Below, one piece after another: positions 2,810 to 5,567 of a stretch of DNA of 64,000 nucleotides. The stretch lies in the IMG/VR virus record IMGVR_UViG_3300045131_001195, positions 1 through 64,000 of that record; one strand, given 5' to 3'. The notes under the pieces were generated by a model. It was not told the DNA's origin. It made no database searches and saw only the letters and a program-made list of their open reading frames with translations. The position numbers and the translations under genes are program-made. The stretch's first letter is position 1. Each line of letters opens with the position of its first letter. The DNA is from an uncultured virus (IMG/VR IMGVR_UViG_3300045131_001195). Lineage: Duplodnaviria > Heunggongvirae > Uroviricota > Caudoviricetes.

Positions 2810-3157
2810 ATGAAAATTAATATAAATGATTTAACATTAAATGCTAAATTAGCAATATCCAGAGAAGAGAAAGAAAAGGGGATGATGAATAAAAGATTTG
2901 ATGACACATTTGATGCAATGCTATTCATAATGGACACACCCAGGTCATGTTTCTGGATGAAAAATTGCATTATCTCACTTGATATTATAATGATTCAAGA
3001 TAATGTTATAACAAAAATTCACCACAATTGCCCCCCTTGCTCAACAGAAAAATGTAAAAGATATTGTGGTGATGGTAATTTGGTTCTGGAGGTAGTTGGG
3101 GGCACTTGTGATAAACATAATATTAACGAAGGTGATGTTATAAATCTTAATAACTAG
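2810..3157 (+). CDS. DUF192-family protein
   Basis: KGMM...MLF...FWMKNCIISLDII...VLEV motif pattern. Confidence 0.8.
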   Translation: MKININDLTLNAKLAISREEKEKGMMNKRFDDTFDAMLFIMDTPRSCFWMKNCIISLDIIMIQDNVITKIHHNCPPCSTEKCKRYCGDGNLVLEVVGGTCDKHNINEGDVINLNN

Positions 3158-4625
3158 AAATCTCCTTCTCTAATTTGGTTTTTATTTTACTTGCAATATC
3201 TTTCATTAATGTCAGATATTGAGTTTCAGTTCTTGGCTCTGATTTGTAGGTGCTTGTTTTTGGTGCATATGTTCTTGGTTCAGTTGATTTTGGTGCATAC
3301 GTTCTTGGTTCTTTTGATGGTGGTCTGCTACCCCTACCAATAAAGTTAAGTCCAGAAATATTTGTAATACTTGGATGACCCCCACTATTTGCTTGAATTA
3401 AATCCCAAGCATTTAGTGCAATACTATCTAATTTCTTTTTCTCCTCTTCAGTTAATTCACCAAACAACTTATCCATAATTCCCTTTAATTCCTCATTTGT
3501 TTTTGGAGCACCTTCTTTTGTATAATATTTATCACCATAAGTGGCATAAAAATCATTAAAGGTAAAACCAACACTTTCTTCTGTTGCTTTTGATTCACTA
3601 ACCCATTTAATTGTTGATAATAAAATTAATTTATCTTCTAACATAGGTTTAAATTGCCCCATAACTTTTTGTGCCAATTCACCTAAATGTAATTTGCTAT
3701 ACTTGGGGTTTGGTTTAAATGGATTTTTTGAAACTTGAATTAATCCTAGTGGCCAGTATATAATTAAGAAATCAGCATCAGGTTGGTTTTTAAATGATGT
3801 ATATCTATCGTATGAACCTGTTCCCTTTAAAGAACCCATACCATATTGGTAAATAATACCATCTTTAAATTCAACATTCTTATGACCCTTCATACTTTCA
3901 ATATACTTTTCAGCATTTGCTTGTAAATCTTCTGGGAGTTCAGTAGTATTTTCTTTCATCCATTTCTTTATATTATTCAATATTGATAAAATGGAAGGTT
4001 TTGAATTCATAACCAAATTTTCAAGAAATCCTTTCTTGTTTTTAAAAGCCAATAGTAATTTATTTGCAACTAAACCCATTAATAATTTATTCTCTCTAAC
4101 ACTTTTTGATTTGTCAAATTTGAATAAATAATTAATAACATCATCTGTAGTTAAACCTTGTCTAACAAAGTCAGCAGAGTCAACTGTATTTATAATTAAA
4201 ATATCAGTATCACTAAACAAATCATTTTTTGAAATAACTTGTGAAATTGTTTCTGCATTCGATCTGGCTTTTTTAAATTGCCCAGATGTTTTCTTGGTAT
4301 CAACCCCAATCTGACTATCATGGTGGTCTGTGTGTATTTTAAACATAGGTTTTCCATGAGCAAAATCCACTAGAACAGGCATAGTGTCTCCTAAGGCATC
4401 ATTCTTCTTTACAGCAAATTCTGTATCTCCGTATTGGATAATATGTGCATCAACAACTTTGATGCCATTATCTTCCAAGTATTTCTTCATGGCCAAAGCC
4501 GAGGCAACTCCATCAAGCCCTTAGAGGTCCTGGTGAAAGTAGATCTCCGCTTTATTATAACGGTTCGCAAGAGCATCAATATCTCTAATTCCACTTTCTA
4601 CCAGGACCTGATTGTTTTTTCTCAT
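3147..4625 (-). CDS. DHH-superfamily phosphoesterase with an in-frame TAA (4521-4523) inside motif I; candidate recoded gene
   Basis: Frame from ATG 4625 reads MRKNNQVLVESGIRDIDALANRYNKAEIYFHQDL*GLDGVASALAMKKYL... in frame with ORF 3147..4496. Motif II VLVDFAH, DHH motif HTDHHDS and C-terminal SGGH are intact. Confidence 0.75.
4525..4609 (-). other. GC-rich mRNA stem (19 bp, 1 bulge) ending at the codon before the internal stop
   Basis: AGGUCCUGGU-A-GAAAGUGGA (4609-4590) pairs with UCUACUUUC-ACCAGGACCU (4543-4525). Confidence 0.8.
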
Positions 4626-4643
4626 AGTCGTTTATTTTTTATT

Positions 4644-4650
4644 ATAAATA
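4644..4650 (-). promoter_or_regulatory. TATTTAT putative late-promoter motif (representative copy, upstream of the DHH gene)
   Basis: Same heptamer 13-22 nt upstream of starts at 1580, 4625, 14721, 34601, 41257, 44870, 48849, 51498, 59634 (minus) and 2810, 7681 (plus). Confidence 0.6.
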
Positions 4651-4652
4651 GA

Positions 4653-5567
4653 TTAGTTATGCGTTTTTAACACATTTATATACTTTGTTTTTTCAATTAA
4701 TTCATCTAAAGTAATTGAACATTTATCTTGTTTTGATAAATTGTTATGTTGTGTTAGTATTTGTAAGTTTTCCTTGGCACTCAAAATTTCAGGTGGTAAA
4801 TTATTTCTAAACCCTTCTGCTACACTAAATTTATGGTCAATATGATAAGTATTGAAACTTATTTTAAGATTATTAGGATTAATTATATTTTTATATTGTT
4901 TATAGGTTTTTTTAGTCATAGACCTAACTATCCTATAATAATTTTTAATAATTAACATATCTTCCTTTGATAAATTAAGTGCAATTGAATTATAAAAACA
5001 TTTACTGCATATAAATTTTTTATGTTTAGCAACAAAATTAACATATCTTTTATTAGAAATATGCCCATTTTTACACTCAACAACTAATTTACTATTTTTA
5101 CCATCTAATTCTACTAATGATAACAATTTAAAGCCATTTTTATTTACTATTTTTTTTAAAAAAACTTCATTTATTATACTTTGATTCTTTTTTATTTTGA
5201 CATCATCAATTAAAGAGGGGTTTTTAATACCTTTCCATTTTTCAGAATAGATTAATTTTAATTCTTTAACTCTTTCTTCACTATGAAAATCACTCCATTT
5301 TCTATTATCACCAAATCTACCATTACCTTCACCAGAACACTGGCAAGGTCTGCATATTTGTATATTAAAATTATTTTTTACTTTAGTTAAATGATGAGCA
5401 CTTATTGAATGAATTTTACTTGGGGTTTTACATTTTGGATTATCGCAAACCCAGATTACTTTATAAGCAGTAGTCCCTTTTTTATTTGTTAAGTCTTCAA
5501 CTTCAACCATATCATAATAAATTATTTTAGATTTAAAATAAACTGGCTTCCAAATAGATTTAATCAT
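4653..5567 (-). CDS. Free-standing HNH homing-type endonuclease with Zn-ribbon/NUMOD-like modules
   Basis: C-terminal YHIDHKFS...ENLQILTQHNNLSK HNH core; VIWVCDNPKC, CRPC-SGEGNGRFG, ECKNGH, CSKC modules. Confidence 0.8.
   Translation of the reverse strand: MIKSIWKPVYFKSKIIYYDMVEVEDLTNKKGTTAYKVIWVCDNPKCKTPSKIHSISAHHLTKVKNNFNIQICRPCQCSGEGNGRFGDNRKWSDFHSEERVKELKLIYSEKWKGIKNPSLIDDVKIKKNQSIINEVFLKKIVNKNGFKLLSLVELDGKNSKLVVECKNGHISNKRYVNFVAKHKKFICSKCFYNSIALNLSKEDMLIIKNYYRIVRSMTKKTYKQYKNIINPNNLKISFNTYHIDHKFSVAEGFRNNLPPEILSAKENLQILTQHNNLSKQDKCSITLDELIEKTKYINVLKTHN

What the first reader, a model, noticed from the sequence alone, without database searches (positions are those of the whole stretch)
4488..4625. 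Candidate programmed ribosomal bypass: 9-nt coding gap with a stop inside the DHH catalytic motif
Seen: minus-strand mRNA reads CAC CAG GAC CUC UAA GGG CUU GAU GGA GUU (H Q D L * G L D G V). Removing exactly 9 nt restores HQDLDGV, the H-x-D-x-D-G motif I of DHH phosphoesterases. The stop is flanked by CUC and CUU, both read by tRNA-Leu(GAG), giving a take-off codon, stop and matched landing codon. The 34 upstream codons have their own ATG and TATTTAT motif, and the ~455 downstream codons are intact with all other motifs. Positions 4491-4610 are 57/120 G+C in an otherwise very AT-rich genome. Established: T4 gene 60 is decoded by a 50-nt hop from GGA-UAG to GGA. Inference: this is a much shorter, independent hop element. 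Alternatives are 9-nt RNA excision, a recent pseudogene or an assembly error. Simple readthrough would break the DxD spacing.
Basis: partly seen in the sequence, partly recalled or inferred. Interest (0 to 1): 0.92.

Follow-up and report, generated by a model that had tools for sequence, protein, structure and literature searches.

The report
Stop-hop cassette in phage phosphoesterase gene
A lake phage enzyme gene is broken inside its catalytic motif by nine bases that carry a stop codon, and comparison with about fifty related phages suggests that ribosomes hop over this patch, a miniature natural counterpart of the phage T4 gene 60 bypass.

Summary
On the minus strand, TAA (4523-4521) sits in a 9-nt insert inside IYFHQDL*GLDGV, and 71 of 71 insert-less related loci read FH(Q/L)DLDGV. 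The exact stretch is held by 14 DNA runs, so it is not an assembly error.

The site is one member of a family. 52 loci (50 viral, 2 metagenome) carry inserts of 6, 8, 9 or 11 nt at this position. Each has a Leu CTN codon, a stop, 0-5 nt, then a second codon (CTN in 51, GTT in one), then GAY GGN. The 8- and 11-nt inserts shift the frame, yet the resumed ORF is intact in 42 of 52 loci (6 are cut by contig ends).

A 17-bp helix ends one base before the take-off codon. It shows compensatory changes, is present in 27 of 28 distinct insert-bearing sequences and is absent from all 42 insert-less ones.

An HNH-type endonuclease gene lies directly upstream in 19 of 52 insert-bearing loci and in 0 of 71 insert-less ones. 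A near-isogenic relative lacks both features.

Best reading (0.75): a homing-endonuclease cassette decoded by a short Leu-to-Leu ribosomal hop. Nothing has been shown at the protein level. Two 9-nt variants have GTT as the landing codon.

This scan has noted similar elements in other genes of other phages.

The parts
4653..5567 (-). 304-aa ORF, candidate free-standing HNH homing endonuclease, ending 27 nt before the interrupted gene
   Evidence: ORF. phrog_5104, E 3e-11, function unknown; no Pfam hit. In 10 aligned copies H242, D244, H245, N267, N276 and Cys pairs are invariant. The top 2 of 48,161 chains by VIA-align are HNH endonucleases, Z 5.7 and 4.9, on residues 193-286. It is about 27% identical to an ORF between the tail sheath and tail tube genes of T4-like coliphages; 1 of the 15 listed records annotates that ORF as HNH endonuclease. 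It is absent from the near-isogenic locus L014.
4524..4625 (-). ORF1: ATG plus 34 codons (MRKNNQVLVESGIRDIDALANRYNKAEIYFHQDL) up to and including the take-off codon
   Evidence: It is nearly invariant at the nucleotide level among the four 9-nt loci: 2 variable sites in 102 nt, dS 0-0.05, against 0.08-0.59 just downstream.
4590..4607 (-). 5' arm of the conserved long-range helix (GUCCUGGUAGAAAGUGGA; 4599 unpaired). In this window it extends by 2 bp to 4609.
4527..4543 (-). 3' arm of the helix (UCUACUUUCACCAGGAC), ending 1 nt before the take-off codon. In this window it extends into 4526-4525.
   Evidence: RNAalifold predicts 17 pairs. GC-to-AU compensatory changes occur at 2 pairs, in 13 and 3 sequences. 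98.8% of cells are paired, against 33-48% when the partner is slid.
4524..4526 (-). Proposed take-off codon CUC (Leu), the rarest Leu codon of these genomes
   Evidence: CTC occurs at 1.4 and 0.9 per 1000 codons. The codon before the stop is CTN in 52 of 52 loci.
4521..4523 (-). In-frame stop UAA in the A site at take-off
   Evidence: A stop is kept in all 52 loci and in all 5 variants of the 9-nt insert.
4518..4520 (-). Spacer GGG (AGG in L097)
4515..4517 (-). Proposed landing codon CUU (GUU in L096 and in contigs from RNA libraries)
3147..4514 (-). ORF2: resumes at GAU and encodes DGVASALAMK... for 455 codons plus stop. It is the body of a DHH/DHHA1-like phosphoesterase.
   Evidence: The motifs DxD, DHH (HTDHHD) and GGH were read by eye. 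Foldseek's top rows are all DHH-family enzymes, E 5e-5 to 1e-2, with low TM scores. dN/dS is 0.07-0.16.
4320..4625 (-). Segment that came in with the cassette (co-conversion tract)
   Evidence: Identity to the near-isogenic, HNH-less, insert-less locus L014 falls to 67-80% only here. It is mostly 90-100% in the rest of the gene and in the flanking genes.

Best explanation
The 9 nt belong to a mobile cassette: an HNH-type homing-endonuclease gene, the first roughly 300 nt of the neighbouring DHH-like phosphoesterase gene, and a short stop-containing insert placed in the most conserved stretch of that gene (FHQDLDGV).

Inferred purpose: the insert breaks up the nuclease's target, so carriers are immune, as shown at the bench for T4 MobA and the gene 60 gap.

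Inferred decoding: the ribosome reaches CUC with peptidyl-tRNA-Leu in the P site and UAA in the A site. Termination is slow. The tRNA unpairs, the mRNA slides 9 nt, the tRNA re-pairs at CUU, and decoding resumes at GAU. This gives the normal HQDLDGV, so 12 nt specify one Leu.

The 17-19-bp helix has its 3' arm directly 5' of the take-off codon. Inferred role: it re-forms as that arm leaves the ribosome and pulls the mRNA forward.

Shown here: the anatomy, its recurrence in 6-, 8-, 9- and 11-nt forms, the covarying helix, the link to the HNH gene, and intact constrained ORFs on both sides.

Not shown: the protein product, the hop efficiency and the nuclease's cleavage site.
For: 1. Recurrence without presupposition. 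A scan allowing any 4-34 nt between FHQD and DGV found 32 family loci. All read Leu CTN, stop, 0-5 nt, Leu CTN.

2. A targeted scan gave 50 family loci out of 51 stretches. Two more came from metagenomes. By insert length: 6 nt in 38 loci, 8 nt in 2, 9 nt in 6, 11 nt in 6.

3. The 8- and 11-nt inserts shift the frame, yet the resumed ORFs run 435-764 aa. Overall 42 of 52 are complete, 6 are cut by contig ends and 4 carry one further TAA.

4. The 11-nt and 8-nt classes are each one clade on the downstream-protein tree (SH-aLRT 98 and 100). They have diverged to dS above 1 with dN/dS 0.07-0.22.

5. Both flanking codons lie in the CUN box in 51 of 52 loci: 28 identical, 23 differing at the third base. 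Insert-less loci use TTA or TTG in 51 of 71.

6. The helix has 17 pairs, 2 with compensatory changes. Duplex energy is -25 to -31 kcal/mol in 27 of 28 distinct insert-bearing sequences, against -3.8 to -13.5 in 42 of 42 insert-less ones. The one lineage without the helix (L245 group) is the one with a second nonsense codon.

7. An HNH gene lies directly upstream in 19 of 52 insert-bearing loci and 0 of 71 insert-less ones. L014 is mostly 90-100% identical in the flanks but lacks both the HNH gene and the insert.

8. There is no suppressor tRNA in the 90%-complete 270-kb relative, and all three stop codons are in normal use.

9. One contig from an RNA library bridges the site with the 9 nt retained.

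10. Literature. Synthetic stop-hops and the MobA/gene 60 cassette are established (10.1101/2022.08.31.505936, introduction read). Pairing of exiting mRNA as a driver of bypassing has been proposed (10.1101/2024.12.09.627546, abstract and passages read).
Against: There are no protein, ribosome-profiling or reporter data.

The landing codon is GUU, not a Leu codon, in 2 of the 5 variants of the 9-nt insert: L096, and contigs of 3 RNA-library runs.

The gap leaves no room for a gene 60-type take-off stem-loop, and none was seen.

The first 34 codons are far more uniform than the rest of the gene. The cassette therefore moves between lineages, and part of the downstream purifying selection may predate its arrival.

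In the 8- and 11-nt classes the resumed frame holds an in-frame UUG overlapping CUU-UGA. There, termination-reinitiation or a +2 shift is possible.

The loci are related, so the counts are not independent.

The nuclease and DHH assignments rest on weak fold matches, with no Pfam hit. The nuclease's target is unknown.
Confidence: 0.75

Rival explanations
1. There is no hop. The stop is read through in the 6- and 9-nt forms, or the ribosome shifts +2 from CUU onto the overlapping UUG in the 8- and 11-nt forms. The resulting enzymes carry 2-3 extra residues between the two Asp of the DxD motif.
For: The 6- and 9-nt inserts are in frame. In the 8- and 11-nt forms the +2 frame is open from UUG. The two sense codons of the 9-nt insert vary only by amino-acid-changing substitutions (GGG/AGG, CTT/GTT), as in an unconstrained linker.
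Against: This needs two different mechanisms for sister elements that share one helix and one layout. A sense mutation of the stop would then be favoured, yet 52 of 52 loci keep a stop. No suppressor tRNA was found in G001. It does not explain why the codon before the stop is always CTN. By inference from DHH-family structures, the extra residues would change the DxD spacing that is invariant in 71 of 71 insert-less loci.
Confidence: 0.08
2. The gene is split. A 34-38-aa N-terminal peptide is released at the stop, a separate C-terminal protein starts nearby, and the two assemble, as in genes split by homing endonucleases.
For: In the 8- and 11-nt classes an in-frame UUG overlaps the stop (UUGA), a typical coupling layout. 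Per the introduction of 10.1101/2022.08.31.505936, the T4 MobA element also split the topoisomerase gene.
Against: In the window, and in the 38 loci with 6-nt inserts, the first in-frame start after the stop is 9-11 codons on (TTG 4496 or the following ATG), or a CTG in some. The second catalytic Asp and the Gly would therefore be lost. It gives no reason for the duplicated Leu codon or for a helix ending at the take-off codon.
Confidence: 0.06
3. The cassette is purely selfish and has killed the gene. The downstream ORF looks intact only because the cassette arrived recently in each lineage.
For: The cassette is mobile. The 5' segment is nearly identical across lineages whose downstream parts differ. 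The insert state needs at least 7 changes on the downstream tree. The L245 lineage carries a second nonsense codon.
Against: 42 of 46 loci that can be judged have complete ORFs, and there are no frameshifts. The 11-nt and 8-nt classes are clades that share their frame-breaking insert and have diverged to dS above 1 at dN/dS 0.07-0.22. 33 of 52 loci keep the insert without the HNH gene, in varied gene neighbourhoods. A covarying helix is maintained.
Confidence: 0.06
4. The extra bases are removed from the RNA, or skipped by RNA polymerase, before translation.
For: This would also restore the frame in all four length classes. The helix could serve such a process.
Against: A 386-nt contig of RNA-library run X15 bridges the site with 0 gaps. 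A second, from X17, also keeps the 9 nt but has only 29 letters on one side. Caveats: RNA libraries can hold DNA, and contigs drop rare forms. No intron or editing system that removes 6-11 nt is known in phages (my own knowledge). There is no Rfam match.
Confidence: 0.04
5. Sequencing or assembly error.
For: None found.
Against: 14 DNA runs from at least 11 studies hold every sampled word of the stretch. Five sequence variants and four independent contigs carry the 9-nt insert.
Confidence: 0.01

Closest known systems
Phage T4 gene 60 50-nt translational bypass with the MobA HNH homing-endonuclease cassette (Bonocora et al. 2011, recalled; Manning & Atkins 2022 preprint 10.1101/2022.08.31.505936, introduction and two sections read)
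   Same: An endonuclease gene lies just upstream. The insert sits early in the gene (codon 34-38 here, 46 in T4) in conserved sequence. A stop follows the take-off codon directly. The codon before the resume site matches the take-off codon. A donor-derived 5' segment travels with the insert. Some genomes keep the insert after losing the nuclease gene.
   Different: The gene is different (DHH-like, not topoisomerase), and the target gene is not split by the nuclease gene. The gap is 3-8 nt rather than 47 (20 in the shortest reported clade). The codons are Leu, not Gly. There is no room for a take-off stem-loop. The 5' helix is strictly conserved and covaries here, whereas that preprint reports the T4 5' stem-loop is not conserved between clades (section 19). 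The HNH protein is only distantly similar to ORFs of T4-like phages (27%).
Synthetic 'stop-hops' in E. coli (Weiss et al. 1987, as cited in PMC5009743 and the preprints; passages read)
   Same: [quoted passage not shown] The 6-nt class (CUU UGA CUU) has exactly this layout, and the window's element is the same with 3 more bases.
   Different: Those were engineered and of low efficiency, and carried no stimulators. These are natural, conserved, and carry a helix. The 2016 review states that no natural in-frame stop hopping was known (PMC5009743, passage seen).
Mitochondrial 'byps' of Magnusiomyces capitatus (as described in the introduction of 10.1101/2022.08.31.505936 and in PMC5009743)
   Same: Short inserts in essential genes are made harmless by translational bypassing. 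Take-off and landing codons are imperfectly matched in some cases, like the GUU variants here.
   Different: Those are 27-55 nt, spread like GC clusters, have an unused sense codon in the A site, and depend on mitochondrial ribosomes.
prfB (RF2) programmed +1 frameshift at CUU UGA C (my own knowledge; prfB autoregulation is named in the abstract listed)
   Same: The same CUU-UGA-C string occurs in the 6-nt class, and slow termination at UGA releases P-site tRNA-Leu pairing.
   Different: prfB shifts +1 onto UUU with an upstream Shine-Dalgarno stimulator. A +1 shift here would not restore the frame in any class.

Membership tests
Programmed translational bypassing (gene 60 type) | Two ORFs encode one protein, and continuity is restored only by skipping bases | tested here: met
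   Removing 6, 8, 9 or 11 nt restores HQDLDGV in 52 of 52 loci. The 8- and 11-nt forms are out of frame yet have intact 435-764-aa resumed ORFs.
Programmed translational bypassing (gene 60 type) | A slow-to-decode codon (stop) lies directly 3' of the take-off codon | tested here: met
   52 of 52 loci: TGA 45, TAG 4, TAA 3. The window has TAA.
Programmed translational bypassing (gene 60 type) | [quoted passage not shown] | tested here: inconclusive
   Codons are identical in 28 loci and share the CUN box in 23 more. One locus (L096) has GTT, as do contigs from RNA libraries. The window has CUC/CUU.
Programmed translational bypassing (gene 60 type) | Take-off stem-loop that can form in the A site | tested here: not met
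   The gaps are only 3-8 nt. The consensus fold shows only the upstream helix.
Programmed translational bypassing (gene 60 type) | [quoted passage not shown] | tested here: met
   A 17-bp covarying helix ends 1 nt before the take-off codon.
Programmed translational bypassing (gene 60 type) | Nascent-peptide signal | not testable with these tools
   Insert-bearing copies share an extended N-terminus ending (V/I)L(V/I)ESG. Whether this acts as a peptide, or only encodes the helix arm, cannot be told.
Programmed translational bypassing (gene 60 type) | A single polypeptide lacking gap-encoded residues is demonstrated | not testable with these tools
   This needs a reporter, mass spectrometry or metaproteomics.
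Free-standing HNH homing endonuclease cassette | HNH (beta-beta-alpha-metal) nuclease domain | tested here: inconclusive
   No Pfam or NCBIfam hit and no Foldseek match. The invariant H-x-D-H...N...N pattern was read by eye. The top 2 VIA-align rows are HNH endonucleases, Z 5.7 and 4.9.
Free-standing HNH homing endonuclease cassette | Presence/absence polymorphism between otherwise near-identical genomes, with a co-converted flank | tested here: met
   L013 against L014.
Free-standing HNH homing endonuclease cassette | Cleaves the insert-less allele near the insert site, and the insert protects | not testable with these tools
   Inferred only from position and from the T4 precedent.
DHH/DHHA1 phosphoesterase superfamily | Match to the family profiles (Pfam DHH, DHHA1) | tested here: not met
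   No Pfam hit at E up to 0.1. NCBIfam gives RecJ_archaeal at E 0.11 over 38 residues only. There is no PDB sequence hit to a DHH protein.
DHH/DHHA1 phosphoesterase superfamily | Two-domain DHH fold with the DxD, DHH and GGH motifs | tested here: inconclusive
   All named Foldseek rows from rank 3 down are DHH-family enzymes (PAP phosphatase, PggH, DhhP, GdpP, TM1595, RecJ, family II PPase); ranks 1-2 are an uncharacterized protein. E values are 5e-5 to 2e-2, TM is only 0.14-0.30, and model pLDDT is 66. The motifs were read by eye and are invariant in alignment A3.

The most novel reading that the evidence does not exclude
These are natural programmed 'stop-hops': a family of 6-11-nt translational bypass elements. 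A conserved helix on the mRNA-exit side of the ribosome, rather than a take-off stem-loop, would supply the push. They would have been created and spread by a homing endonuclease as its own immunity patch. Earlier notes of this scan suggest the same trick recurs in several other genes of lake phages.
Probability: 0.65. Interest if true: 0.92.

Novelty: new variant of a known kind. Interest (0 to 1): 0.88.

Why it matters
Programmed translational bypassing has one bench-proven bacterial example, T4 gene 60 and its homologues, all in topoisomerase genes. The 2016 review PMC5009743 says shorter counterparts with matched codons were long presumed to exist, and that no natural in-frame stop hop was known (passages). 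Four searches of the held library found no later report.

This family offers about 13 natural sequence variants in four lengths. They share a minimal layout and a single covarying helix. That makes a small system for testing what drives ribosome sliding, and whether mRNA pairing at the exit is enough.

It is also a second, independent case of a homing endonuclease paired with a bypassed immunity insert.

There is a practical consequence. Gene callers truncate these genes (4 of 19 database proteins fetched start after the break), so such enzymes are mis-annotated in phage metagenomes.

Tried and rejected
- Pfam, NCBIfam and PHROGs gave no name for the enzyme. PHROGs gave only an unnamed family for the nuclease.
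- PDB sequence profiles: none for the nuclease; only chance-level rows for the enzyme.
- Foldseek on the nuclease model: nothing at E up to 0.001.
- Rfam on 4350-4750: no match.
- GenBank phages: the enzyme occurs only in 2 uncultured phages of 635-642 kb. DNA search gave one weak match. No cultured carrier was found.
- Cellular genomes: 0 of 11 pattern matches belong to the family.
- tRNAs: none in the window or its record. An alternative genetic code was rejected: all three stops end long ORFs, and TAA, TGA and TAG all occur at the site.
- RNA libraries: only contigs were available. One run bridges the site by the tool's 31-letter rule, one falls 2 letters short, and one ends inside the insert. 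Uncovered parts and depth say nothing about expression.
- A Shine-Dalgarno-like reading of the G-rich spacers was considered and dropped. They abut the landing codon, too close to pair with the anti-SD at landing (inference).
- dN/dS between the 9-nt loci alone was rejected as a test of post-insertion constraint, because the cassette moves between lineages. The clade-wise argument from the 8- and 11-nt classes was used instead.
- The careful tree search did not finish, so the quick tree is reported. Rows left out were proteins under 380 aa, including the L245 group and contig-cut copies, and exact duplicates.
- Supplements of the preprints are closed and were not seen.
Full report
**1. The observation.** The minus strand of the window reads ATG (4625), 34 codons ending CAC CAG GAC CTC, then TAA (4523-4521), GGG, CTT, GAT GGA GTT. 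A further 455 codons are open in the same frame, down to TAA 3149-3147. G+C of 4491-4610 is 57/120, against 0.31 for the window.

The window is part of a 75.5-kb IMG/VR virus record that CheckV rates 24% complete. It uses all three stop codons normally: TAA 53, TGA 9, TAG 7 at the ends of ORFs of 120 aa or more.

**2. Uninterrupted is the norm.** A protein search with the break read as X found 3834 relatives among 8000 scored candidates. Of 19 fetched, 15 read IYFHQDLDGV. Four (P0002, P0003, P0016, P0020) begin at the Met just after the break, as a gene caller would call an interrupted copy. Among the 80 best related viral loci, 71 read FH(Q/L)DLDGV without interruption, 4 carry the 9-nt insert and 5 gave no usable motif.

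**3. Not an artefact.** The same insert occurs in four other viral contigs of 77-270 kb. One carries TAA and three (identical to each other over 7.4 kb) carry TGA. Two metagenome contigs carry further variants: CTC TGA GGG GTT GAC and CTC TAA AGG CTT. Fourteen DNA runs from at least 11 lake or freshwater studies hold every sampled word of the 451-nt stretch; some may be the source sample. A 1541-nt DNA contig is identical.

**4. The wider family (the decisive result).** A scan of viral contigs allowed any 4-34 nt between TTTCAYCARGAY and GAYGGNGT. All 32 read Leu codon, stop, 0-5 nt, Leu codon.

A targeted scan with 3.5-kb flanks returned 51 stretches, 50 in the family. With the two metagenome loci this makes 52 loci and 13 sequence forms:

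| Insert | Loci | Forms |
|---|---|---|
| 6 nt | 38 | CTT TGA CTT 17; CTT TGA CTG 9; CTG TGA CTT 7; CTT TAG CTT 4; CTT TAA CTT 1 |
| 8 nt | 2 | CTT TGA CG CTA; CTT TGA CG CTG |
| 9 nt | 6 | four forms |
| 11 nt | 6 | CTT TGA GGGAA CTT; CTT TGA CGGGT CTT |

- The stop is TGA in 45 loci, TAG in 4 and TAA in 3.
- The two flanking codons are identical in 28 loci, share the CUN box in 23, and differ otherwise in 1.
- Insert-less loci use TTA or TTG for this Leu in 51 of 71.
- The resumed reading frame is complete (435-764 aa) in 42 loci and cut by a contig end in 6. It is interrupted by one further in-frame TAA in 4 loci of one lineage.

The 8- and 11-nt inserts put the two halves in different frames, so simple readthrough cannot serve them.

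**5. Selection.** Nei-Gojobori dN/dS of the downstream ORF is 0.07-0.16 among the 9-nt loci and 0.04-0.39 across insert-bearing pairs, with dS mostly above 1. The cassette moves between lineages: the first 34 codons have dS 0-0.05 among the 9-nt loci, against 0.08-0.59 for the next 67 codons. Such pairs alone therefore do not date the constraint.

On a quick ML tree of the downstream protein (31 insert-bearing and 39 insert-less rows), the 11-nt class (SH-aLRT 98) and the 8-nt class (100) are each one clade. These clades share their frame-breaking insert and have diverged to dS 1.15-1.56 at dN/dS 0.07-0.22. The careful search did not finish. Proteins under 380 aa and duplicates were left out. 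This is hard to square with a dead gene. The insert state needs at least 7 changes on the tree, 5 of them forced by well-supported branches, which fits a mobile cassette.

**6. The helix.** The window's 211 nt around the site fold to -60 kcal/mol, z = -4.63. In an alignment of 30 distinct insert-bearing 5' regions, RNAalifold predicts a single structure. It has 17 pairs between GUCCUGGU.GAAAGUGGA (window 4607-4590) and UCUACUUUCACCAGGAC (4543-4527). The 3' arm ends one base before the take-off codon; in the window two more pairs reach into CUC.

Two pairs change on both sides, GC to AU, in 13 and in 3 sequences. These correspond to Val-to-Ile changes in the 5' arm and synonymous His/Asp changes in the 3' arm. 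98.8% of cells are paired, against 33-48% when the partner is slid by 1-3 columns.

The duplex energy between the 23 nt before the Leu codon and the upstream 87 nt is -25 to -31 kcal/mol in 27 of 28 distinct insert-bearing sequences. It is -3.8 to -13.5 in 42 of 42 insert-less ones. The single exception, the L245 lineage, is also the only one with a second nonsense codon. Many insert-less copies have a different local hairpin. There is no Rfam match.

**7. The endonuclease link.** Directly upstream (4653-5567) lies a 304-aa ORF. Relatives at 52-73% identity, all open, sit in the same place in 19 of 52 insert-bearing loci: 13 of 38, 2 of 2, 4 of 6 and 0 of 6 by class. They occur in 0 of 71 insert-less loci; four of those have a 31% relative.

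Locus L014 is mostly 90-100% identical to the window type in the flanking genes and in most of the enzyme gene. It lacks both the ORF and the insert. Identity falls to 67-80% only over the first roughly 300 nt of the gene, the footprint expected of homing with co-conversion.

The nuclease assignment is weak:
- No Pfam or NCBIfam hit, and PHROG 5104 is unnamed.
- The AF2 model has pLDDT 64 and no Foldseek match.
- The H-x-D-H...N...N pattern and Cys pairs are invariant in 10 copies.
- The two best of 48,161 chains by VIA-align are HNH endonucleases, Z 5.7 and 4.9, low values.
- Its C-terminal half is about 27% identical to an ORF between the tail sheath and tail tube genes of T4-like phages. 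One of the 15 listed records annotates that ORF as HNH endonuclease.

In the other 33 loci the insert persists without this gene, next to varied neighbours.

**8. What the enzyme is.** Sequence profiles do not name it. An AF2 model of the uninterrupted homologue P0001 (pLDDT 66) has Foldseek matches whose named rows are all DHH/DHHA1 enzymes, with E 5e-5 to 2e-2 and low TM. The DxD, DHH and GGH motifs are invariant in the alignment. I file it as DHH-like, with membership not proven.

**9. Decoding.** The hop is the only single mechanism that serves all four lengths and explains the duplicated CUN codon, the obligatory stop and the helix.
- There is no suppressor tRNA in the 90%-complete 270-kb relative. 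It encodes 12 tRNAs, including tRNA-Leu(AAG).
- One RNA-library contig (X15, 4285-4640, no gaps) bridges the site with the 9 nt present. X17 has 29 letters on one side. X19 ends inside the insert. RNA libraries may contain DNA.
- These three runs carry a fifth variant, CTC TAA GGG GTT GAC. The landing codon is therefore GUU in 2 of 5 variants, the main point against strict codon matching. Imperfect matches are reported for mitochondrial byps (PMC5009743, passage).
- In the 8- and 11-nt classes, an in-frame UUG overlapping CUU-UGA leaves reinitiation or a +2 shift open for those classes only.

**10. Literature.**
- The Manning & Atkins preprint (10.1101/2022.08.31.505936; abstract, introduction, section 19 and passages read) places all known gene 60 homologues in topoisomerase genes with MobA. 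Its shortest gap is 20 nt, and it finds the 5' stem-loop not conserved between clades.
- The Wills, Parsawar & Atkins preprint (10.1101/2024.12.09.627546; abstract and passages read) proposes pairing of exiting mRNA as the forward driver.
- The review PMC5009743 (passages read) says that no natural in-frame stop hopping was known.
- Four searches of the held library listed no report of this family. Subscription journals and preprint supplements were not seen.
- Earlier AI notes of this scan describe similar nuclease-linked stop-containing inserts in a radical-SAM gene, dnaE, a family B polymerase and a methylase of other phages. I did not test them.

**11. Verdict.** No protein-level proof exists.

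Noticed in passing
L245, L257, L271, L282 (and the cut L281): 84 codons after the hop site: One lineage with a 6-nt insert has a second in-frame TAA at the conserved Ser of the ARSNxET stretch. The remaining ~480 codons are open. Its 5' helix arm is degenerate (duplex energy -9.7 kcal/mol). It may be a decaying copy or a further recoding site.
   Followed up: partly
G001 (270-kb relative, contig of L003) 120765-121186 and 159921-212715: ARAGORN calls a tmRNA-like gene (tag GNTLETLATLGLVREDAVVAA) and 12 tRNAs, including tRNA-Leu(AAG) and tRNA-Arg(ACG). None is a suppressor. A phage tRNA-Leu that could read both CUU and CUC may bear on the hop.
   Followed up: no
L235 1641-3347 (minus strand), upstream of an 11-nt-insert gene: A 568-aa ORF with DUF7487 (E 4e-22) and weak restriction-endonuclease-like and Mom matches. 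It may be a different mobile nuclease linked to the 11-nt class, which lacks the HNH gene.
   Followed up: partly
L024-L027, about 2150-2920: A distant (31%) relative of the HNH ORF sits upstream of uninterrupted copies of the enzyme gene. It may be a nuclease with another target, or one whose immunity rests on synonymous changes.
   Followed up: no
window 3230-3330 (minus strand): The C-terminal region of the enzyme holds tandem PKSTEPRTYAPK-like repeats. Their number differs between close relatives (P0001, P0002, P0003).
   Followed up: no
window 2810-3157 (+) against 3147-4514 (-): A conserved 115-aa ORF converges on the enzyme gene and overlaps its last 11 nt. It is kept in most related loci at 43-89% identity.
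   Followed up: no
5' regions of insert-less loci such as L082, L083, L076, L022: Many insert-less copies have a strong local hairpin of about 12 bp within codons ~16-28 (z about -3 to -5). It is unrelated to the long-range helix of the insert-bearing copies.
   Followed up: no
P0034-P0117 (about 700-750 aa) and L246, L259, L274 (584-764-aa resumed ORFs): Some family members carry a C-terminal extension of about 250 aa, with PF25218 in the database proteins.
   Followed up: no
window 4515-4523 compared with 4524-4625: Among the four 9-nt loci, 3 of the 9 insert positions vary but only 2 of the 102 upstream positions do (Fisher p 0.003). The two upstream sites occur in all four combinations, which points to recombination within about 60 nt.
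   Followed up: partly
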